Assembly: GCA_046727075.1 (NCBI GenBank) | Contig: JBKPBY010000053.1 | Location: 13,078 to 77,077, forward strand | Origin: a bacterium | GTDB taxonomy: Bacteria > Verrucomicrobiota > Verrucomicrobiia > Chthoniobacterales > JAFAMB01 | DNA: 64,000 nt | Reading direction: 5' to 3' | In this document: positions 15,102 through 38,580 of the stretch, one piece after another | Layout: each line of letters opens with the position of its first letter | How positions within the stretch are numbered: position 1 is the stretch's first letter | Program-made: the position numbers and the translations under genes | The notes under the pieces: generated by a model | The model's database searches: none | Told to the model about the DNA's origin: nothing | The model's input: the letters and a program-made list of their open reading frames with translations, nothing else

Positions 15102-16791
15102 CTATTTTGAGCACGCAGCTTCGCCGCTCTCTACGTACTCATACGGTTCGTAGACCGGTTCCCAGAAATTCGCTTTGAGCTCTTGTTCCAGCCCTGCTTC
15201 ATCCACTTCCGCGAGCCCGTCCTTGATTGACTGCAGGCCGACGGCTCTGGCTACTGACTTACTCACCGAGCGGATTGTCTCCAATGCTGGAAGCAAACTG
15301 GCATTCTTGTCCTGACGAGTGGGCGAAAGCTCTGCTAGTGCCAGTGCTGCCGCCTTGATCATTCCGTCGGATACATGCCGGGCGCGCGAAGAGAGTATGC
15401 CAAGTGCAAGCCCCGGGAAGACGTACGAGTTGTTTGTCTGAACAAATGGCACAGGCCGGCCGTTATAGCTAGCCGGAGGAAATGGACTTCCGGTCCCGAT
15501 CAACGCCCGCCCCTCCGTCGCGTCTGCGACCCTCCTGCGGCGTCGCTTCGCAGCGCGAGTTTGGATTGGACAACGGGAAGATTATCGGTCGGGCGACGTC
15601 TTGTGCCATCGTCCTCATTGCTTCTTTGGTGAATGCGCCCTGCTGACCTGAAACACCGATGAGAACGGTGGGACGCACATTCTTGATCACATCGAGTAGC
15701 CCGATGTTCTGCGGATCCGTAACCTTCCATTCCGCCACCTCAGCGCGCTGGCGGGCGAAAGCCTGCTGCTCAGGACGCACGCCTTCGCCACCTTCCACAA
15801 TTAGCCCGTAGCGATCGATTGCGTAGAAGCGGGAATAAGCGTCTCGTTCGCTCAGACCGGCGTCCCGCATCGTCGACAAAATGAGACGAGAGATTCCGAT
15901 GCCTGCACCGCCGAAACCTAAAACGACGATACGTTGATCTTCCAAAGGGACGCCTGTGACATTTATTGCCGACAGCAGTGTGCCAGTGGCGATGGCCGCA
16001 GTCCCCTGAATATCATCGTTAAAAGTGCACAGCTGGTTTCTGTACCGCTCAAGGAACTTTGCGCGTTACCTCCCGCAAAGTCCTCCCATTGCAGAAGAAC
16101 CTTCGGCCATCGACGCTTAACCGCCGAAACAAACGTATCGACCAACTCTTCGTACTTTGCGCCGCGTACCCGCTTGCTTTGCCAGCCGATATAAAGTGGA
16201 TCAGCCAACCGCTCCTCATTGTCGGTACCGACATCCAGCAAAATCGGCAGGCACCACTCTGGCCGGATACCTGCCAGAGCGGTGTACAGAGCCATCTTGC
16301 CAATCGGAATTCCCATCCCGCCGGCACCTTGGTCGCCTAACCCGAGAATGCGTTCTCCGTCGCTGACCACGATACAGCGAATGTCATCATAACGCCGATG
16401 CGAGAAGATCTGCTCGATGCGATTTCTATTCCGGATAGCTCAGGAAAAGGCCACGCGGTTTCCGCCAGATCTCGCTGAATTTCTGGCACGCTTCGCCTAC
16501 CGTCGGCGTATAAACGATCGGCAACGTGTCTTTGATGTGCTCGGCAATTAGCGAATAAAAGAGCGTTTCATTCGTGTCCTGAAGATCCCGCATGAATTCA
16601 TACTTCTCGAGCGGCGCCGTTAAGTTCGACAACCCTTTGCGTCGTCGCGTTCTCTGGTACTCCAACGTGCTGACATGGGTGGGCAAAAGACCGTGCAGCG
16701 CGAAGGTGTCGCGCTCGCTTTCGGAAAACGCCGTCCCTTTGTTAAGGCGCGAATTGTTCAGCAGATTCGGCCCTGTAAGGTTTGTCTTCAT
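15102..16791 (-). pseudogene. NAD-dependent malic enzyme gene broken by three frameshifts
   Basis: Four consecutive minus-strand ORFs (16791-16426, 16370-15963, 15945-15469, 15503-15102) together spell a ~563-aa malic enzyme: PIVYTPTVGEAC, VVSDGERILGLGDQG, GFGGAGIGIS, PIIFPLSNP, GTGSPF. FNDDIQGTA is readable only in a shifted frame. Frame changes occur near 16426-16432, 16058-16062 and 15530. Confidence 0.85.
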
Positions 16792-31974: not shown

Positions 31975-32148
31975 GGCCATTGTGTTAGAGCTTTTTTGAC
32001 GGGACGCTATAGCGCGGCACGCCTCTGCCGTCGGCACCTAAGACGTCTTAACGCGATCTCGAATGAGCGTAACGGCGCGTTGGGTATTGGCGGCAGGGCC
32101 GCCGACCCTGCAGCGTCGCGAAACGCCAAACGCCAAACGCCGAACTCT

Positions 32149-33666
32149 ATGCCTTCAGCCTACGATGAGGTCCTCTATCCGCCGGGCGTTCATATCCATA
32201 CGCAGCTTGATCGGCTCGCAACGGTAGGGCATCTGCGCGGAATGCAGCCTGCTCCGGTTGATAATTGCCGGGTGCTGGAACTCGGCTGTGGTGTTGGAAC
32301 GAACCTGGTTGCGATGGCAATCAACTCGCCTGAGAGTTCGTTTCTTGGCCTGGATCTCGCCTGTAAGCCGATTCAGAGCGGTCAAGCCGACATCAAGGAA
32401 CTAGGGTTCCGCAATGTTGAGTTGATCGAGGCAGATGTTCTTGATGCAAACAAGAAACGGTTCGGCGTATTCGACTACATCATTGCTCACGGGTTGTACT
32501 CGTGGGTACCGGAATCGGTCCGTGAGCATGTGCTTGGCATGTGCCGGGAAATGCTGAGTCCGAACGGTATCGGTTACATAAGCTACAATGCGTATCCGGG
32601 GAACCATCTCCGCGATCTCGCTCGCGGGATCATGCGATTCCATGCCAGGCATTTCCAGGAACCCGCGGAAAAGATCCAGCAAGCGCGGGGAATTTTGCAG
32701 TTTCTTGCCAGAGCCCGTTCGGAACCGAACGCTTACACGGCGGCTTTACAATCAGAAGTCGATCGAGTCGTCGAATATGCTGACGCGGCCTTCTATCACG
32801 ACGATCTCAGCGACATTAATCGATCGTTCTATTTTTACGAGTTCGTCCGAGACGCCGAACGCCATGATCTCCGGTTCGTTGGCGAATCCAGTCCGAACGA
32901 AGTTGATCCTGATAAAGTGACACCTGAAACGCTCCAGCGGCTCAGCGAGCTCGAAAGCGCCGATGAGGCGACTCTTGAACAGTATAAGGACTTTGTGCTT
33001 GGATGCGGATTCAGGCGCACGCTTGTTTGTCACAAAGAAGTTCCGCTGGCGCCGAATCGTTTGGCGGAAGTCGTTAAAGAGCTCTTTCTTTCATGCGATG
33101 CTGCACCCGTCGACGAGCCTGCTGGGGGAACAGTTTTCAGACAGCGAAAAGGAGGGGAGCTGGCGAGCATGCATCCACCGATCATTGCCGCGCTTCGTCG
33201 AATCTGTGAGGAATGGCCGTGTGCGATATCATTTGATGCCGCGTTTCGCGCTTCCGGTATGAGCGACTGCGGGTTGCTCACTGAAGTCTTGTTGAAGGCG
33301 TATGAGAGTGGCGTTGTACAGCTGCACACAATTCCACGAGTCGTCGTGAATCGAGTCAGCGAGCGGCCGATAGCCTCGACGTTGGCTCGGCTCCAAGCGA
33401 GCCGCGGTGAGCTTGTAACTTGCCAGCTTCATAAGTTGATTCGATTGGCGGATCCGCTGAGTAAGCGGCTGGTGACTTTGCTGGATGGAACGCGTGATCA
33501 AGGAGCAATTCTTGAAGAGCTTTTAGAGTTTGCCAGATCTGGACAAGTAGAACTTCGCGACAACGAACGCTTTCTCACAGATCCAGCGGAAATCGATTCG
33601 GTCATCCGGCGCCGTGTGCCAGAGGTACTTCAAGCGCTCGCCCGCGAAGCGATGCTGGTAGGGTAG
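32149..33666 (+). CDS. class-I SAM methyltransferase with a C-terminal methyltransferase-regulatory-type domain
   Basis: AYDEVLYPPGVHIHTQLDRLATVG ... VLELGCGVGTN ... FDYIIAHGLYSWVP ... YISYNAYPG. Start at ATG 32149, because the upstream part of the ORF is translated repeat (NAKRQTPNS). Confidence 0.8.
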   Translation: MPSAYDEVLYPPGVHIHTQLDRLATVGHLRGMQPAPVDNCRVLELGCGVGTNLVAMAINSPESSFLGLDLACKPIQSGQADIKELGFRNVELIEADVLDANKKRFGVFDYIIAHGLYSWVPESVREHVLGMCREMLSPNGIGYISYNAYPGNHLRDLARGIMRFHARHFQEPAEKIQQARGILQFLARARSEPNAYTAALQSEVDRVVEYADAAFYHDDLSDINRSFYFYEFVRDAERHDLRFVGESSPNEVDPDKVTPETLQRLSELESADEATLEQYKDFVLGCGFRRTLVCHKEVPLAPNRLAEVVKELFLSCDAAPVDEPAGGTVFRQRKGGELASMHPPIIAALRRICEEWPCAISFDAAFRASGMSDCGLLTEVLLKAYESGVVQLHTIPRVVVNRVSERPIASTLARLQASRGELVTCQLHKLIRLADPLSKRLVTLLDGTRDQGAILEELLEFARSGQVELRDNERFLTDPAEIDSVIRRRVPEVLQALAREAMLVG

Positions 33667-33736: not shown

Positions 33737-33791
33737 GCGCCAAACGCCAAAACCTCTCGCGCAGTAGTCCGGCCTTGGCCGGACGAAGGCG
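33737..33791. repeat. REP-like element copy 2 (extended)
   Basis: GCGCCAAACGCCAAAACCTCTCGCGCAG followed by the perfect 27-mer at 33765-33791. Confidence 0.95.
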
Positions 33792-33801
33792 TCAAATGCC
33801 T

Positions 33802-34665
33802 CTACGGCACAACTGCCCACACTTCGACGATCCGATTTTTGGCGAACTGCTGCTGATCAAACATATCAGTTCCTCCCATCGGGATCGGATACATAACATT
33901 CAGCACGCCGCACTTGTCTTTCAGGATCTGGGTCACTGTCTGAGCTCTTCCAAGCGATAGATCGATATTCCTTTGGTCGTTCCCTTGTTTGTCGGCGTAC
34001 CCTAGAACCACCAGTAATAACGTTGGATCCTCCAGAAATCTTCGAACGCGCTCTTGAGAAACCTGATTCTGAACGGAGGCAATATCTTGTGGGGGAAGAT
34101 TGGTGTTTGCTGTTGCGAACGAGATTACAACGAGACGCCCCATTCCCTTTGCCTTTTCTACAAATTGGTACACTCGGTCTTTCTGGGCTCGCGTATAGGT
34201 TGGCTGCATCTCAACTCGCCTAAGAATCTCTCGTTTTACCTGGTCAAAATCTTGTCCGGTGAGATCCAAATTTAGAGGCTCTACCTTAGAAAGCGGCGTT
34301 CCACTCGGCGCTGGCGTAGGCGTTGGCGTGGAAATGGGAGTAGGAATCGGAGTCGGTACTGGGGTTGATATCGGAGTTGGAGTCGGGGCGACGGTTGGTG
34401 TTGGCGTGGGCTCCGTTATTATGGAGGGCCGTCGGGGAGACGAAAAAAGAGTCCAGATGATTGCGGCGATCGCCAGCAGCAATACCGCCCCCACACATGC
34501 GAAAACTATCCAGAGATAGGATGGTTTTTCTTTCGGTCCAATTGTTTCAAGTTGGGATCCGCACTCCGGACAATTGAAATTCTTGGTAACGACAACGATC
34601 TTCTCGTTCCGATAGGCCAGCGTACAGCCTGAATAATTGGTACACTTACCGACAGTTTGGGCCAT
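33802..34665 (-). CDS. Zn-ribbon / single-TM / Pro-Thr linker / OmpA-MotB-like peptidoglycan-binding protein
   Basis: 287 aa. KCTNYSGC...CPECG zinc ribbon, TM helix LWIVFACVGAVLLLAIAAIIWTLF, linker PTPTPTVAPTPTPISTPVPTPIPTPISTPTPTPAP, and OmpA-like C-terminus VVLGYADKQGNDQRNIDLSLGRAQTV ... NRIVEVW. Confidence 0.7.
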   Translation of the reverse strand: MAQTVGKCTNYSGCTLAYRNEKIVVVTKNFNCPECGSQLETIGPKEKPSYLWIVFACVGAVLLLAIAAIIWTLFSSPRRPSIITEPTPTPTVAPTPTPISTPVPTPIPTPISTPTPTPAPSGTPLSKVEPLNLDLTGQDFDQVKREILRRVEMQPTYTRAQKDRVYQFVEKAKGMGRLVVISFATANTNLPPQDIASVQNQVSQERVRRFLEDPTLLLVVLGYADKQGNDQRNIDLSLGRAQTVTQILKDKCGVLNVMYPIPMGGTDMFDQQQFAKNRIVEVWAVVP

Positions 34666-34731
34666 ATCAGAGAAATTGTAGGTGTCATTTTGCTCGGGAA
34701 ACCCCGTGGGGTCAATGACTGACCGCCAAAC

Positions 34732-34747
34732 TAATCCGATCGGATTA
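34732..34747. promoter_or_regulatory. perfect 16-bp palindrome, candidate operator
   Basis: TAATCCGATCGGATTA, located 67-82 nt upstream of the Zn-ribbon/OmpA start codon. Confidence 0.35.
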
Positions 34748-34872
34748 TAGGCTGGCGTAGCACACGCAGGAGTCCGGCGATTGCCGGATGAAGCTCAGCC
34801 CTGCCGGCGATGTGTTTCGCTCCCGCAATCGGTAGGGCCGAGCTTCAGCTCGGCCTCCTGCGAGTACCGCCC

Positions 34873-36801
34873 TCAGGCGTGTTGTTTAGCTAAGACCGCG
34901 TAGATCGCGTCATGGATCTCGAGATTCTGGTTCCAATCGGGGACAACCAGGCTTCGCGAACGAAGTTGCAGCCGAGCCAGGTCGGCAATCGGTTCTTCAA
35001 AAATCTTTTCCAGGGCGCTCGGTGGCGCGTCTCCGAAGTCTCGGCAGAAGCTGGCGGGACCAACGCCGGGAAATAGCCGAACAATCAGGCCCAACGCCTG
35101 CCACCACAGCTCCGGAGGAACAACATGGGCTGCTCTGGCGCGCATCTCCGGGTCAAATGTGAGGCGATGTGGGCCGAGTGATTCGCTCCACCGTGGGTCG
35201 CGCTCGATGACATCCTGCAGTTGGGCCGGGAACGGAGCATCTTTCTCCGTAGAGATCTGCCGGGCCAGGCTCAATATCTCATCGAGAGCAATGGCCAGCG
35301 TATTCTCTCCGTTGACGAGAAGAATCCGCGTGGCAATTACGGCCAGAGAATACATGTCGCATGGCGAGGACAAAAGCGGTAACACCTCAAAATTAACCTG
35401 GTGGATCGGAGTTCCCGCGGCCTTTTCCAGAGCCTGCTGTTGTGTCTCCGAAAGCTCCTGCGGAACTGTCCTGAACCGTGTCTCTCCTGTAGCCAATGCC
35501 TGCGATTCATCGACCCTGCCAAAAAGATTGATCTGATGCGGCACCAGCGTGAACTGAATGTGCAGCAGGTCACTGGCGGCAATTTCCAGACGTTCGTCGG
35601 AAGCGATTGTCGCTTCGATACAAATTCCTTGCGGAGTCGGCGGCAACACTTTGCGAATGCGTATCGTAGCCTTTCCTTGTAACGGAACGCCCAGGTTGCG
35701 TGGCCGAAACACGGATGGGCTTGGCGATTCTGCCGGAAGAAAATAGCGAGCGCGACTGGTTTCCAGTGCCAGCGGGATTGCTCGGCTTGATTCGATTAAG
35801 TCGACGTTCGCTGTCCACAAACAAGGCAGTCCGGTTCCGGTTTCCGACAGCCTCACGCGGAAGCTAGCTGTGTTAAGCCCGAGAAACGGGAGCTGCTGTA
35901 AACGAATTGCGTTTCGGGTTTCGACGATCGTTTGAAGAATCAGGTTGAGTTTGAGATGCAAAACTTCAAGCAAGCGCGCGGCTTTACCGTTCCTTCCGGT
36001 AAACAGGTGGGCGCCTTCCTGGATTGCTTGATCAATGTCGGCGAGACGGGAATAGGCGGCTCCGAGAGGTATGCGGCCACCTCCGTTCATGTCGAAATGA
36101 ATGCCACCCCAGGATTTTCCGCCGAGCACATCTGCAAATTCGCTGAGCGACAGTGGAGAGAGCAATCGCGCAAACCATAGTCCGCCAGCGTTGAAGACTG
36201 ATGCCCGCGGGAAAGAATCGCTCAGTGTTCTTACACCGGGCGGAGTAGGAGCATCCGTGGTAGCTGCGAGAAAAATGGGAGCCTTGGTCTGCGGACCGGT
36301 CCACAGATAGCGGTGCAACGATTGGCTATATGCAGGTAAGCTGGCAGCAACCAGCGCTTCATCATCGGTACACAGGGAAAATTGCTGGTTTGATTCGGGG
36401 TCAACTGGCCGAACGATCGTGCCGGATTCCAGGAAAGCCGGATCACGACGATCCGTTTCGATTAAATTCGTGCGGCCGAGGCTTCGGAACATGGAAGTCC
36501 GTTGCGCCCATTTCTGGTCCAGAAACGCGTTGGTCAAAGGCTCTGACCGTGCGCGAAAGCTGGAGCGGACGCGATCGACATTTTGCACCCAGACCTCGAC
36601 CCAGATCTTTGGATCTTTCACACGGTCGACCAGGCAGCCAAGATAGACGGAAGCGTCGATCGTCTCACGTAACAGCAGAAAATGCGGTGTTTTTTCCGCC
36701 TGAACGACTAGGCAAAGAGCGAGAGTCGCGTCGCGATCTTCTGGCTGCAGTGGTACAGCGCGAAATCCTGGTGGCAACAACTCGTCCTCAGAACCCGTCA
36801 T
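34873..36801 (-). CDS. hypothetical 642-aa protein (orphan; kinase-C-lobe-like segment only)
   Basis: A long uninterrupted ORF whose amino-acid composition looks protein-like by eye. No catalytic motif recognised. SSPCDMYSLAVIATRILL ... VPPELWWQALGLIVRLF resembles Hanks-kinase subdomains IX-XI. Confidence 0.7.
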   Translation of the reverse strand: MTGSEDELLPPGFRAVPLQPEDRDATLALCLVVQAEKTPHFLLLRETIDASVYLGCLVDRVKDPKIWVEVWVQNVDRVRSSFRARSEPLTNAFLDQKWAQRTSMFRSLGRTNLIETDRRDPAFLESGTIVRPVDPESNQQFSLCTDDEALVAASLPAYSQSLHRYLWTGPQTKAPIFLAATTDAPTPPGVRTLSDSFPRASVFNAGGLWFARLLSPLSLSEFADVLGGKSWGGIHFDMNGGGRIPLGAAYSRLADIDQAIQEGAHLFTGRNGKAARLLEVLHLKLNLILQTIVETRNAIRLQQLPFLGLNTASFRVRLSETGTGLPCLWTANVDLIESSRAIPLALETSRARYFLPAESPSPSVFRPRNLGVPLQGKATIRIRKVLPPTPQGICIEATIASDERLEIAASDLLHIQFTLVPHQINLFGRVDESQALATGETRFRTVPQELSETQQQALEKAAGTPIHQVNFEVLPLLSSPCDMYSLAVIATRILLVNGENTLAIALDEILSLARQISTEKDAPFPAQLQDVIERDPRWSESLGPHRLTFDPEMRARAAHVVPPELWWQALGLIVRLFPGVGPASFCRDFGDAPPSALEKIFEEPIADLARLQLRSRSLVVPDWNQNLEIHDAIYAVLAKQHA

Positions 36802-36850
36802 CTACCCGAGCGTAACATCACGAATCCTATTTTGGCTAGCACGGAGGAGG

Positions 36851-36974
36851 GAACCGCAGATTTCACAGATTACGCAGATTTTATTTTGGTGGTCGCCTCC
36901 AACGATGCGGGCAAGTCCACGCGATAGACCTGAATATCAATAAAAATCTGTGTAATCCGCGAAATCTGCGGTTC
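36851..36974. repeat. MITE-like element: ~35-bp terminal inverted repeats around a 53-bp core
   Basis: GAACCGCAGATTTCACAGATTACGCAGATTTTATT (36851-36885) versus AATAAAAATCTGTGTAATCCGCGAAATCTGCGGTTC (36939-36974). Confidence 0.75.
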
Positions 36975-36989
36975 TTTCTTTCTGCTCCT

Positions 36990-37727
36990 CTACAACGCCG
37001 CGTTGACTTGCTGAATCGCTTGCTGGACCTGTTGATAGCTCGCTTGGAAGCCTTCCATCGTTTTTTTGTCAGAGAACGAAATGCCGGCCTCTTTGCCTGG
37101 CTTCCATTTTCCGGCGTTCTTTTCCAGATAATCGGTCACACCGAGCGCAGCGTCCGCCAGCTTTGTCAGAGCATCGGACCGAGCTGCTTGTTTCGTGATT
37201 GCGTTCCTTTCGATAAACAAGTTTGTCACTTGCGATGCCATATCGTCCGACAAGCCTGCAGCTTTCAACTGTGTCGTCATATTTGCTTGGAGGCCGTTGA
37301 GTACATCCCGCCTTTTGCCGGACGCATCCTTCAATGCTTCCGCTGCCTTCTTTGCGTTGGCGACATCCTCCTTTGTTTTAATTGCGGCCAACGGCTGTAC
37401 CACCTGCGCGTCGACAGTCGTTTCGAGCGGTTTCGCAGCGGCGTCTACATCGGCCAAGTTTTTCCCCGTCTCATTGAGAGCACGAGCAACTGGAGCCTCG
37501 TCCGGCGGCAATGAATCGGGATTTGCGCTCATCAAGTTCAAATAATCCGCTGGTCCTTTCGGTTTCGGTGTAGCGGTTGGAGTCGCTTGCGCTTGGGGAG
37601 GCGGTTGTTCACTCTTGTTGCAGGCGGAGAGCAACCCGAAGAGCGCAATCAGGCAAAGCGAAGAATAGAGACCGCACACCCAAGAAGCATTACGGCGTGG
37701 TTGAGAGGATGAGATCGCATTCGACAT
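36990..37727 (-). CDS. hypothetical alpha-helical lipoprotein
   Basis: Lipobox LLSAC after a hydrophobic segment. PQAQATPTATPKPKG linker, then an Ala/Lys/Gln-rich helical body. Start taken at ATG 37727. Confidence 0.6.
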   Translation of the reverse strand: MSNAISSSQPRRNASWVCGLYSSLCLIALFGLLSACNKSEQPPPQAQATPTATPKPKGPADYLNLMSANPDSLPPDEAPVARALNETGKNLADVDAAAKPLETTVDAQVVQPLAAIKTKEDVANAKKAAEALKDASGKRRDVLNGLQANMTTQLKAAGLSDDMASQVTNLFIERNAITKQAARSDALTKLADAALGVTDYLEKNAGKWKPGKEAGISFSDKKTMEGFQASYQQVQQAIQQVNAAL

Positions 37728-37824
37728 GTCGGTAGTTCTAGCGAGATTCGCGGGCACGTCTACGGCGATTTTCTCGCGAATCCCTGTTGAGACGCGAACT
37801 CGATGCAATGATAGTGCGAGCCAC

Positions 37825-38580
37825 ATGGTTCGTTCTATCGGTTTTGGGTTGTTGGCTTGCTTGCTTTGCGGTTGTGCCACGCGGGCGCTAACATCTGTCA
37901 AAGGAATACCCGGTCACTTCAGCACAGTAATTATCGATGCCGGTCACGGCGGCAAAGACAACGGAGGGCTCGGTGGACGACGCGGCATCGGCCTTGTTAG
38001 AGAAAAAGATGTAACGCTTAGCACGGCTAAGAGAGTTCGCGCGGAGCTGCAACACGCTGGCGTGCGCACGCTGATGATCCGCGACGATGACCGTTTTGTA
38101 GAGCTCGATGACCGGGTAGCTTTTGCGAATCGCCAAGGACCAAACGCGATTCTGGTCAGCATTCATTATGATGCCACCGGGGACCGCGGCGCGAACGGGG
38201 CAAAGACCTATTTCTGGAGAGCGGATAGCCACGGACTGGCAACGCGGATCCAGGAAAACCTGGTGGCCGAGACCGGCGAAACCAACCTCGGCGTTTTGCG
38301 CCGGCGCCTTCGACTGACTCGCAACCCGGAGATTCGATCGATCCTCTGTGAATGCGCGTATCTGACGAACCCCGGTGAGGCGCAGAAAGTGACGAACGAC
38401 GCCTACCAATCCAAAATTGCCACCGGTATCGCTAGGGGCATTCTCGAACAATATCGCCTGGGTGACGCAGGCATCGCCTCGGTCCCCGAACTCATTGCGC
38501 CCATGTCCAGAGCCTCCGACAAATACGTGAGCCGCCACACAACGCACCGCCGCAAGCACCACAAAAAAGTAAAAGCGTGA
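37825..38580 (+). CDS. N-acetylmuramoyl-L-alanine amidase (Amidase_3), lipoprotein
   Basis: Lipobox LLCGC. IIDAGHGGKDNGG, SIHYDA and ECAYLTNP motifs. Start taken at ATG 37825. Confidence 0.85.
   Translation: MVRSIGFGLLACLLCGCATRALTSVKGIPGHFSTVIIDAGHGGKDNGGLGGRRGIGLVREKDVTLSTAKRVRAELQHAGVRTLMIRDDDRFVELDDRVAFANRQGPNAILVSIHYDATGDRGANGAKTYFWRADSHGLATRIQENLVAETGETNLGVLRRRLRLTRNPEIRSILCECAYLTNPGEAQKVTNDAYQSKIATGIARGILEQYRLGDAGIASVPELIAPMSRASDKYVSRHTTHRRKHHKKVKA

What the first reader, a model, noticed from the sequence alone, without database searches (positions are those of the whole stretch)
33802..37727. Three-gene block of unassignable envelope proteins: best candidate for an undescribed system
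Three same-strand (-) genes, separated and bounded by repeat elements, cannot be placed in any characterised pathway. (i) 36990-37727 is an alpha-helical lipoprotein with lipobox LLSAC. (ii) 34873-36801 is a 642-aa soluble-looking orphan. (iii) 33802-34665 has a cytoplasmic CxxxxxC...CPEC zinc ribbon, one TM helix, a ~45-aa Pro/Thr linker and an OmpA/MotB-like peptidoglycan-binding domain. A cytoplasmic Zn ribbon tethered through the membrane to a cell-wall anchor, next to a large orphan carrying a kinase-C-lobe-like helix, suggests a trans-envelope signalling or anchoring device. The function is pure inference.
Basis: partly seen in the sequence, partly recalled or inferred. Interest (0 to 1): 0.65.

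Follow-up and report, generated by a model that had tools for sequence, protein, structure and literature searches.

The report
Detached type VI secretion accessory genes
The three genes are real, but they are not a self-contained system: in related bacteria the large "orphan" and the zinc-ribbon/cell-wall-anchor protein sit at the edge of type VI secretion (bacterial "nano-harpoon") gene clusters, so they are most likely undescribed accessory parts of that machine, while the lipoprotein is a lineage-specific neighbour.

Summary
All three minus-strand ORFs exist at the stated coordinates with the stated anatomy. The 642-aa protein (B) is not an orphan. It belongs to a family with 953 representatives (50%-identity clusters), all about 650 aa. 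The family has no Pfam, NCBIfam or PADLOC hit and no PDB sequence hit. A confident AlphaFold model (pLDDT 90) has no whole-protein Foldseek match.

Gene context gives the answer. In 17 of 33 independent loci, from Chthoniobacterales, other Verrucomicrobiota and unassigned metagenome contigs, B lies within 10 kb of T6SS core genes (TssA/B/C, Hcp, TssE/F, TssK/L/M, ClpV, VgrG, PAAR). It often sits directly beside a small lipoprotein, tssK-L-M, or a Ser/Thr (pseudo)kinase.

Protein C (Zn ribbon, TM helix, Pro/Thr linker, OmpA-like domain) lies next to B in 16 genome loci. It is convergent there and has its own promoter. The co-directional order seen in the window comes from a clade-specific inversion of a roughly 0.95-kb cassette.

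The lipoprotein (A) is found only in the window's own clade.

The window itself has no T6SS core gene. All three genes are under strong purifying selection (dN/dS 0.05-0.10).

Verdict: B and C are probable new T6SS accessory factors, detached here from the core locus. They are not a new three-gene system.

The parts
36990..37727 (-). A: 245-aa lipoprotein (signal peptide plus lipobox LSAC). It is specific to the window's clade and diverges from a lipoprotein amidase.
   Evidence: No hit in Pfam, NCBIfam, PADLOC or PDB. Found next to B only in L001-L004 and L037/L038. dN/dS 0.06-0.10.
36851..36974 (.). 124-nt near-perfect hairpin (32-nt arms) in the A-B spacer.
   Evidence: RNA fold of the spacer: -71.6 kcal/mol, z = -5.2. 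Not alignable to L004 or L037.
34873..36801 (-). B: 642-aa cytoplasmic four-domain protein. It belongs to a large unannotated family linked to T6SS loci and is a candidate new T6SS accessory factor.
   Evidence: family. (no known family). (AF2 pLDDT 90.3, pTM 0.91). (no fold match). (T6SS neighbourhoods). dN/dS about 0.06.
34748..34872 (.). Highly structured spacer after the B stop codon. It includes a REP-like hairpin at 34771-34790 and a GC hairpin at 34838-34857.
   Evidence: The whole 207-nt B-C spacer folds at -95.6 kcal/mol, z = -5.5.
34687..34747 (-). C's own promoter-like site (TTGACC-17-CAAAAT, 34715-34687), preceded by a perfect 16-bp palindrome TAATCCGATCGGATTA (34732-34747). Both move with the C cassette.
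33802..34665 (-). C: 287-aa bitopic inner-membrane protein. Zn ribbon (nt 34561-34644), TM helix (about 34444-34518), Pro/Thr linker (about 34291-34416), OmpA-like peptidoglycan-binding domain (about 33817-34125). Candidate cell-wall anchor for the T6SS membrane complex.
   Evidence: Adjacent to B in 16 genome loci. Lies between B and tssA in L016.
33815..34747 (.). The roughly 0.95-kb C cassette (gene plus promoter). It is inverted relative to its flanks when compared with L004 and more distant relatives.
   Evidence: Synonymous divergence from L004 is twice that of the flanks (dS 1.52 against 0.64-0.85).
33766..33785 (.). REP-like palindromic hairpin downstream of C. A second copy lies on the other side of C.
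   Evidence: 13 matches in the window against 0.84 expected.
31996..33666 (+). PKMT-like protein methyltransferase. It is syntenic with C and with tssA in relatives.
37825..38580 (+). Amidase_3 (N-acetylmuramoyl-L-alanine amidase) with its own lipobox (LLCGC). It diverges from A across a 97-bp spacer.

Best explanation
B and C are accessory components of a Pseudomonas H1-like type VI secretion system (T6SS-i) of Verrucomicrobiota and related phyla. In this genome they are encoded away from the core locus.

C is a bitopic inner-membrane protein. Its periplasmic OmpA-like domain binds peptidoglycan and its small Zn ribbon faces the cytoplasm. Inferred role: it fastens the inner-membrane part of the T6SS membrane complex to the cell wall, as TagL or long-form TssL do elsewhere.

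B is a cytoplasmic, four-domain protein of about 650 aa: two alpha/beta domains, a long helix, a beta-barrel and a helical C-terminal domain. Inferred role: it acts at the membrane-complex/baseplate assembly step as a scaffold or checkpoint, and receives input from Ser/Thr (pseudo)kinase or partner-switching modules. It occupies the locus position that fha1 occupies in the H1 cluster, directly before the small lipoprotein gene (L040: B, lipoprotein, tssL, tssM) or before a TagH-C-like gene and tssK-L-M (L035).

A is an unrelated, clade-specific lipoprotein paired with a lipoprotein amidase.

The three genes are separate transcription units brought into one orientation by a local inversion.

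Shown: the family memberships or their absence, the gene neighbourhoods, the inversion and the purifying selection. Inferred: the molecular roles of B and C, and that a T6SS exists elsewhere in this genome.
For: B's family and structure:
- 953 family representatives, all full length at about 650 aa.
- No known domain in 72 members.
- Confident AF2 model, pLDDT 90.3 and pTM 0.91.

B's neighbours in close relatives:
- L016 (B 56% identical) reads B(+) C(-) PKMT(-), then tssA (ImpA_N 1e-33), tssB (VipA 2e-57), tssC (VipB 2e-134), hcp (2e-41), tagJ (ImpE), tssE, tssF (2.5e-217). From my memory, this is the order of the H1-T6SS.
- TssA/B/C also follow in L008, L015, L019, L021, L024 and L028. A tssB fragment diverges from B in L009.

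B's neighbours in distant homologues (30-42% identical to the window protein):
- L035: B, TagH-C-like, tssK, tssL, tssM, TagF-like, tssA.
- L033: B plus lipoprotein, converging on tssK-L-M.
- L040: B, lipoprotein, tssL, tssM.
- L032 and L029: tssK at E=1e-47 and 9e-35.
- L022: tssK diverges from B.
- L020: clpV plus vgrG.
- L042 and L039: PAAR.

Tally: 17 of 33 independent loci have a T6SS core gene within 10 kb, and 9 of the 13 loci with at least 8 kb on both sides. A roughly 30-kb locus in a multi-Mb genome would give about 1% by chance.

Kinase link:
- A genuine Ser/Thr kinase lies directly downstream of B in L014 and L010 (Pkinase 3e-48).
- Pseudokinase-TM-FGE proteins follow in L029, L030, L032, L041 and L042. 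TagR belongs to COG1262, which from my memory is the FGE family (PMC13584744).

C:
- Peptidoglycan-binding motif intact.
- The TssL proteins in these clusters carry only a DotU annotation, with no OmpA hit.
- C stays with B, PKMT and the STAS-Mla-PP2C module through several rearrangements.

Selection: dN/dS is 0.05-0.10 for A, B, C and PKMT.
Against: - No T6SS core gene, kinase or Mla/PP2C module is present in the 64-kb window or in the 20-40-kb contigs of its clade. The local copy may therefore work without a T6SS.
- Four well-flanked loci (L014, L018, L023, L027) also lack core genes within 10 kb.
- C's T6SS link rests on one bacterial order and could be inherited synteny.
- C's OmpA domain is no closer to the T6SS type_VI_ompA model (E=0.086) than to generic OmpA families (YiaD 6e-7).
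- B matches no known T6SS protein by sequence, profile or Foldseek. Its assigned step in assembly is by position only.
Confidence: 0.62

Rival explanations
1. A, B and C form one autonomous operon encoding a trans-envelope signalling or anchoring device: an outer lipoprotein, a cytoplasmic partner, and a Zn-ribbon/peptidoglycan anchor.
For: - The three genes share a strand in the window and in L001-L003 and L037/L038.
- All three are under purifying selection.
- The localisations are complementary: lipoprotein, cytoplasmic protein, inner-membrane/peptidoglycan protein.
Against: - A is absent next to every B homologue outside the clade.
- C is convergent with B in L004 and in 14 further genome loci.
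- C carries its own promoter-like site and palindrome.
- Large hairpins separate the genes.
- A is unrelated to the lipoprotein that does accompany B in other lineages (hhalign probability 1.5%).
Confidence: 0.07
2. B has a T6SS-independent cytoplasmic function, such as envelope-stress or partner-switching signalling. Its proximity to T6SS genes would then reflect shared regulation or inherited synteny. In the window clade it would work without any T6SS, possibly together with C.
For: - No T6SS gene lies within 10 kb in the window clade or in L014, L018, L023 and L027.
- In L039, B heads a STAS-MlaE-MlaF-MlaD-GAF/PP2C/HATPase operon.
- Kinases are adjacent in L010, L014 and L023.
- Selection is strong despite the detachment.
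Against: Adjacency to different T6SS genes (tssK/L/M, tssA, tssB, vgrG/clpV, PAAR) recurs in different arrangements across lineages, down to about 30% identity. Inheritance alone explains this poorly.
Confidence: 0.2
3. B is a T6SS cargo-related protein (effector, immunity protein or VgrG/PAAR adaptor) rather than part of the machine or its regulation.
For: B lies directly after PAAR in L042 and within 5-9 kb of vgrG/clpV in L020.
Against: - The family is one uniform full-length architecture, with 8 invariant and about 45 nearly invariant columns over 72 diverse members.
- dN/dS is about 0.06.
- Only one copy was seen in each locus examined.
- The usual neighbours are tssJ-like, tssK, tssL and tssM, not vgrG.
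- There is no match to the adaptor families DUF4123, DUF1795 or DUF2169.
- B has no signal sequence or toxin-like domain.
Confidence: 0.06
4. C is a generic envelope protein, a Pal/OmpA/MotB-type cell-wall tether, with no specific tie to B or to T6SS. Its position would be neutral synteny within Chthoniobacterales.
For: - The best family matches are generic OmpA-like lipoproteins (YiaD, Pal, OmpA).
- The C family was found only in the Chthoniobacterales-type loci, and no distant B locus has a C-like gene nearby.
- C has its own promoter.
Against: - C remains beside B, PKMT and the T6SS-flanking genes through an inversion, an insertion of the Mla operon and a reshuffled order in L039.
- The TssL proteins annotated in these clusters show DotU only, with no peptidoglycan-binding domain, so an anchor is needed.
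Confidence: 0.25

Closest known systems
TagL (SciZ) and other peptidoglycan-binding T6SS accessory proteins (TagN, TagI, TagP, TagW; long-form TssL)
   Same: C is inner-membrane anchored and has a periplasmic OmpA/MotB-like domain with the peptidoglycan-binding Asp/Arg motif. In relatives it is encoded at a T6SS locus, and the TssL genes annotated in related clusters show no peptidoglycan-binding domain. This is the situation in which TagL anchors the membrane complex to the wall (PMC13584744, PMC8253398).
   Different: - TagL has three TM helices and no Zn ribbon (from my memory). C has one TM helix, a cytoplasmic C4 Zn ribbon and a roughly 45-aa Pro/Thr linker.
- There is no specific sequence similarity to T6SS OmpA models (TIGR03350, E=0.086).
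- In the window C is not in a T6SS locus.
- TssL binding is untested.
Fha1/TagH and the threonine-phosphorylation pathway of the P. aeruginosa H1-T6SS (TagQRST-PpkA-PppA-Fha1-TagF)
   Same: - The core order in L016 (tssA-B-C-hcp-tagJ-tssE-F) matches H1.
- B sits directly before the small lipoprotein gene or before tssK-L-M, where fha1 sits in H1.
- Kinases or pseudokinases with FGE (TagR-like) domains, a PP2C phosphatase, an ABC-type module and TagF-like genes accompany it.
   Different: - B has no FHA domain and no T6SS_FHA_C domain.
- A separate protein of about 306 aa carries a weak T6SS_FHA_C match.
- The ABC module is Mla-like with STAS partner switching, not TagS/TagT.
- The H1 gene order is recalled from memory and was not recomputed here.
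TsmK / TslA-type lineage-specific structural T6SS accessory factors of Acinetobacter
   Same: These are lineage-restricted accessory proteins encoded in or beside the locus, and they stabilise the TssL-TssM complex or its link to the baseplate (PMC13584744). That is the functional class proposed here for B.
   Different: No sequence or fold relationship was detected. The phyla are different. B's binding partners are unknown.
MotB/Pal-type peptidoglycan tethers
   Same: C shares the OmpA_C-like fold signature and the peptidoglycan-binding motif.
   Different: C has no MotB plug or proton-channel TM features, is not a lipoprotein like Pal, and has an N-terminal Zn ribbon.

Membership tests
OmpA_C-like peptidoglycan-binding domain (PF00691), tested for C | Profile match at or above the Pfam gathering score | tested here: inconclusive
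   The window protein scores 26.0 bits against a cut-off of 27.2 (E=1.2e-5). Most orthologues carry a precomputed PF00691 hit.
OmpA_C-like peptidoglycan-binding domain (PF00691), tested for C | Conserved G-x-T/A-D...N-x-x-L-S-x-x-R-A motif (Asp and Arg that contact the peptide stem) | tested here: met
   GYADKQGNDQRNIDLSLGRAQTV aligns to PA0833-PD GYTDSTGSRQHNMDLSQRRAQSV. The Asp and Arg are conserved in all 16 orthologues.
TagL-type T6SS cell-wall anchor, tested for C | Encoded within or beside a T6SS gene cluster | tested here: inconclusive
   Met in relatives: L016 has C between B and tssA, and L008, L015, L019, L021, L024 and L028 have it within 10 kb of tssA/B/C. Not met in the window or its clade.
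TagL-type T6SS cell-wall anchor, tested for C | Three-TM inner-membrane anchor that binds the TssL TM domain | tested here: not met
   C has a single hydrophobic segment at about aa 47-78. Binding to TssL cannot be tested with these tools.
Known T6SS core or accessory families (TssA-M, TagF, TagH/Fha, TagJ, VgrG, PAAR adaptors), tested for B | Profile match to any Pfam or NCBIfam T6SS model | tested here: not met
   B has zero hits at E<=1 in Pfam, NCBIfam and PADLOC. Of 72 family members, none has a T6SS domain. hhalign against the neighbouring TagH-C-like, TagF-like and pseudokinase families gives probability below 1%.
T6SS-associated gene (TAG) in the operational sense, tested for B | Recurrent location inside or beside T6SS loci across lineages | tested here: met
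   17 of 33 independent loci, and 9 of 13 with at least 8 kb on both sides. The arrangements and phyla differ.
T6SS-associated gene (TAG) in the operational sense, tested for B | Effect on T6SS assembly or secretion | not testable with these tools
   This needs genetics in a T6SS-positive PVC strain.
   No Pfam or PDB sequence hit. Foldseek against PDB returns no kinase. The best BFVD hit is a Pandoravirus 'protein kinase' at E=8.5e-3 with TM 0.27/0.20.
TssJ-like T6SS lipoprotein, tested for A | Small outer-membrane lipoprotein encoded with tssK/L/M and homologous to TssJ or to the lipoprotein that accompanies B elsewhere | tested here: not met
   A has a lipobox but no family hit. It is unrelated to the B-adjacent lipoprotein family (hhalign probability 1.5%). 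It occurs only in the window clade.

The most novel reading that the evidence does not exclude
B defines a new-fold, phylum-spanning T6SS component. In PVC bacteria it would replace the FHA-domain scaffold and couple an unusual sensory apparatus to membrane-complex assembly. That apparatus comprises pseudokinase-FGE fusions, or a STAS/Mla-like/PP2C partner-switching module. C would be a new Zn-ribbon class of cell-wall anchor that B docks onto. In the window clade the B-C pair persists away from the core locus, perhaps even without it, as a stand-alone trans-envelope module.
Probability: 0.25. Interest if true: 0.72.

Novelty: new variant of a known kind. Interest (0 to 1): 0.5.

Why it matters
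T6SS biology rests almost entirely on Pseudomonadota and Bacteroidota. A 2026 review of accessory factors lists none from Verrucomicrobiota or Planctomycetota and calls T6SS-i restricted to Pseudomonadota (PMC13584744).

This work finds a family with 953 representative clusters, no annotation and no recognisable fold. The family tracks T6SS membrane-complex and regulatory genes in soil PVC bacteria. With it come a Zn-ribbon/OmpA-like anchor, TagH-like proteins without an FHA domain, pseudokinase-FGE fusions and an Mla-like partner-switching module.

If confirmed, these would name several new T6SS parts and a new way of switching the machine on in abundant soil bacteria. They would also remove a large "hypothetical protein" family from the unknowns.

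For this window specifically, the result reduces an apparent new system to satellites of a known one.

Tried and rejected
- Pfam, NCBIfam and PADLOC on A, B and C gave only a weak OmpA hit for C.
- PDB sequence or profile searches for B, C, A and the B-adjacent lipoprotein gave nothing useful except generic OmpA domains for C.
- The first AF2 run, with 29 close homologues, was poor (pLDDT 58.6). The second, with 72 diverse members, was good.
- Foldseek against PDB and BFVD gave only local matches to a beta-barrel of about 100-130 aa (UPF1 1B, FNR-like or ATP-synthase N-barrel type). There was no whole-protein match.
- hhalign of B against the neighbouring pseudokinase, TagH-C-like and TagF-like families found no relation.
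- The idea that A is the TssJ-like partner of B was rejected.
- A simple invertible switch flanked by inverted repeats around C was considered. No long inverted repeats were found, only palindromic REP-like hairpins on both sides. The orientation does not follow the flank phylogeny: the window and L037 are co-directional, while the closer L004 is convergent. C also shows excess dS. Recombinational replacement plus inversion is therefore more likely than phase variation, but this is unresolved.
- Rfam on the region gave nothing.
- Literature searches found no description of T6SS in Chthoniobacter or PVC phyla that involves these genes.

Full report

- A (36990-37727) begins MSNAISSSQPRRNASWVCGLYSSLCLIALFGLLSAC. 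This is a signal peptide with a lipobox, and both are kept in the orthologues.
- B (34873-36801, 642 aa) has no hydrophobic segment.
- C (33802-34665, 287 aa) has four Cys (8, 14, 32, 35) forming CxxxxxC...CPEC, one TM helix (about aa 47-78), a Pro/Thr linker (about aa 84-125) and an OmpA-like C-terminal domain.
  - All of these parts are conserved in 16 orthologues.
  - The Pfam OmpA match is just below threshold (26.0 against 27.2 bits).
  - The peptidoglycan-binding signature GYADKQG...LSLGRAQTV is intact.
  - Most orthologues carry PF00691.
- Some metagenome gene calls split C into a 70-aa wrong-frame ORF and a 155-aa fragment. The 287-aa ORF is the real gene.

The spacers are strongly structured:

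- The A-B spacer holds a 124-nt hairpin (-71.6 kcal/mol, z = -5.2).
- The B-C spacer folds at -95.6 kcal/mol (z = -5.5).
- A dispersed REP-like hairpin flanks C on both sides (13 matches in the window against 0.84 expected).

**B is not an orphan.**

- More than 240 close homologues exist. Those that carry a taxon name are Chthoniobacterales or Verrucomicrobia MAGs, and all named entries are 'hypothetical'.
- An exhaustive profile search finds 953 representatives of 50%-identity clusters, 401 of them at E<=1e-30. Almost all are full length at about 650 aa.
- None of 72 diverse members has a Pfam domain.
- The family profile hits nothing in the PDB by sequence.
- With a diverse alignment AlphaFold gives a confident model, pLDDT 90.3 and pTM 0.91. 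The model has two alpha/beta domains, a 30-residue helix, a beta-barrel region and a helical C-terminal domain.
- Foldseek against the PDB and against viral models finds only generic small-barrel matches and no whole-protein relative.

**Gene neighbourhood in Chthoniobacterales.** I compared 26 genome loci and 13 metagenome loci.

- A is found next to B only in the window's own clade: L001-L003 (same species), L004, L037 and L038.
- C lies next to B in 16 genome loci. In every one outside the window lineage it is on the opposite strand, converging on B.
- Upstream of B these genomes usually have a divergent secreted DUF4440-like protein of 168 aa.
- Beyond C many have a STAS/MlaE/MlaF/MlaD/GAF-PP2C-HATPase operon, then a PKMT-type methyltransferase, then a canonical T6SS locus diverging from it.
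- In L016 the order is B(+), C(-), PKMT(-), then tssA, tssB, tssC, hcp, tagJ, tssE and tssF, with Pfam E-values from 1e-33 to 2.5e-217. As I recall it, that is the gene order of the P. aeruginosa H1-T6SS.
- TssA/B/C also follow in L008, L015, L019, L021, L024 and L028. A tssB fragment diverges from B in L009.

**Gene neighbourhood of distant B homologues.** The link does not depend on that shared synteny. Homologues 30-42% identical to the window protein sit in other arrangements.

| Locus | Arrangement |
|---|---|
| L035 | B, TagH-C-like, tssK, tssL, tssM, TagF-like, tssA |
| L033 | B plus 184-aa lipoprotein, converging on tssK-tssL-tssM |
| L040 | B, lipoprotein, tssL, tssM, large FGE-domain protein |
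| L032, L029 | B, lipoprotein, pseudokinase-TM(-FGE) protein ... tssK (E=1e-47, 9e-35) |
| L022 | B divergent from TagH-C-like plus tssK |
| L020 | clpV and vgrG upstream |
| L042, L039 | PAAR nearby |

- Genuine Ser/Thr kinases with PEGA domains follow B directly in L014 and L010.
- In all, 17 of 33 independent loci outside the window clade have a T6SS core gene within 10 kb. The figure is 9 of 13 among loci with at least 8 kb on both sides. Many of the negatives are short contigs.
- A 2026 review of T6SS accessory genes lists nothing resembling B and nothing from PVC phyla. It gives TagR as COG1262, which from my memory is the FGE family, and it lists TagL/N/I/P/W as the peptidoglycan-binding accessory proteins (PMC13584744).

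**The window's own arrangement.**

- The window and the contigs of its clade contain no homologue of TssA, B, C, E, F, K, L or M, Hcp, TagJ, ClpV, VgrG, PAAR, the kinase or the STAS-Mla-PP2C module.
- Here PKMT is followed by an M23 peptidase and ComEC. B is preceded by A, a lipoprotein amidase, LacI and MFS genes.
- Relative to L004 (B 91% identical) the roughly 0.95-kb segment holding C and its promoter is inverted, while the flanks are collinear.
- L037/L038 (B 86%) share the window's orientation, so orientation does not follow the flank phylogeny.
- C's synonymous divergence from L004 (dS 1.52) is about twice that of B, PKMT and A (0.64-0.85). This points to replacement or recombination of the cassette.
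- The cassette carries a conserved promoter-like site, TTGACC-17-CAAAAT, and a perfect 16-bp palindrome. C is therefore an independent transcription unit.
- All four genes are under strong purifying selection (dN/dS 0.05-0.10), so none is decaying.

**Interpretation.**

- The best-supported reading is that B and C are accessory genes of an H1-like T6SS of PVC bacteria, encoded here away from the core genes.
- C has the properties needed of a cell-wall anchor for the membrane complex. The TssL proteins annotated in related clusters show only a DotU domain. That is the situation in which TagL-type proteins act in Proteobacteria.
- C is not a TagL family member. It has one TM helix, a Zn ribbon and no specific sequence similarity to TagL-type proteins.
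- B is cytoplasmic, and its neighbours are tssJ-like, tssK/L/M, TagH-C-like, TagF-like and kinase or pseudokinase genes. This suggests a scaffold or checkpoint at the membrane-complex/baseplate step, fed by phosphorylation or partner-switching signals. That step is inference from position only.
- A is an unrelated clade-specific lipoprotein. It is not related to the small lipoprotein that accompanies B elsewhere.
- The main rival is that B, or the B-C pair, has a T6SS-independent envelope-signalling role in this clade. It cannot be excluded without the whole genome.

**Verdict.**

- Novelty: probable new accessory components, and a new regulatory flavour, of a known machine.
- Interest is moderate (0.5). 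This is a large, structurally unassigned family that now has a testable context, but it is not a new kind of system, and the local copy is detached from the machinery that gives it meaning.

Noticed in passing
window 33815-34747; L004 12017-12955; L037 9919-10864: The C gene and its promoter form a cassette of about 0.95 kb. It is co-directional with B in the window and L037/L038 but convergent in L004, which is the closer relative by its flanks, and in all more distant relatives. Its dS against L004 is twice that of the flanks. Palindromic REP-like hairpins flank it in the window. This could be recurrent inversion or recombinational replacement.
   Followed up: partly
window 34732-34747 and 34687-34715 (minus strand): A perfect 16-bp palindrome, TAATCCGATCGGATTA, lies just upstream of a TTGACC-17-CAAAAT promoter-like site for C. 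It is conserved only in the window clade and occurs nowhere else in the window. It is probably an operator for an unknown regulator.
   Followed up: partly
window 20505, 28097, 33766, 34771, 44681, 48363: A dispersed REP-like hairpin, AGTCCGGC-N4-GCCGGA, gives 13 matches counting both strands, against 0.84 expected. A copy is also present in L004.
   Followed up: partly
L008 13290-18026; L039 11615-16554; also L006, L015, L019, L021, L023-L025, L028: A conserved operon lies beside B/C and the T6SS locus in Chthoniobacterales: STAS, MlaE-like, MlaF-like, MlaD-like and a GAF-SpoIIE(PP2C)-HATPase_c_2 protein. In L039, B heads this operon. It looks like a partner-switching module coupled to an Mla-type transporter and may be the analogue of TagQRST/PppA. 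It is absent from the window.
   Followed up: partly
L029 12527-15400; L032 4886-8941; L040 10215-13866; L041 4821-7742; L042 7441-11604; L030 4924-5913: Large proteins lie next to B in distant lineages.
- Five of them (L029, L030, L032, L041, L042) have an N-terminal degenerate kinase-like domain (HG[NS]xKxxNxL in place of HRD), then a TM helix.
- Two of the five complete ones carry a C-terminal FGE-sulfatase (TagR-like) domain.
- The L040 protein instead starts with a TagF-like segment.
- None has a Pfam kinase hit.
- The accompanying TagH-like proteins (about 306 aa) lack an FHA domain.
   Followed up: partly
window 31996-33666; L016 12986-14560; L039 8252-9826: A PKMT-type protein-lysine methyltransferase (MethyTransf_Reg plus WHD_PKMT) is conserved between C and tssA, often directly upstream of C on the same strand. 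It may methylate an envelope or T6SS protein.
   Followed up: no
window 37728-37824: A and the Amidase_3 gene are a divergent pair of lipoproteins (lipoboxes LSAC and LLCGC) separated by only 97 bp. A may relate functionally to the amidase rather than to B.
   Followed up: no
window 15102-16791 (minus strand): Four consecutive ORFs of 121-158 aa in different frames look like fragments of one malic-enzyme gene (N-terminus MKTNLTGPNLLNNSRLNKGTAFSESERD). This is either a pseudogene or frameshift errors in the assembly.
   Followed up: no
L019, L023, L028 (B gene): B is split into 2-5 ORFs in these MAGs (MFD long-read bins). These are probably assembly frameshifts rather than real pseudogenes.
   Followed up: no
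L016 4006-7233; L021 2544-5308; L019, L024, L028 upstream of B: A highly repetitive gene with 13-residue-periodic tandem repeats lies a few kb upstream of B in several Chthoniobacterales loci. It produced hundreds of tblastn self-hits.
   Followed up: no
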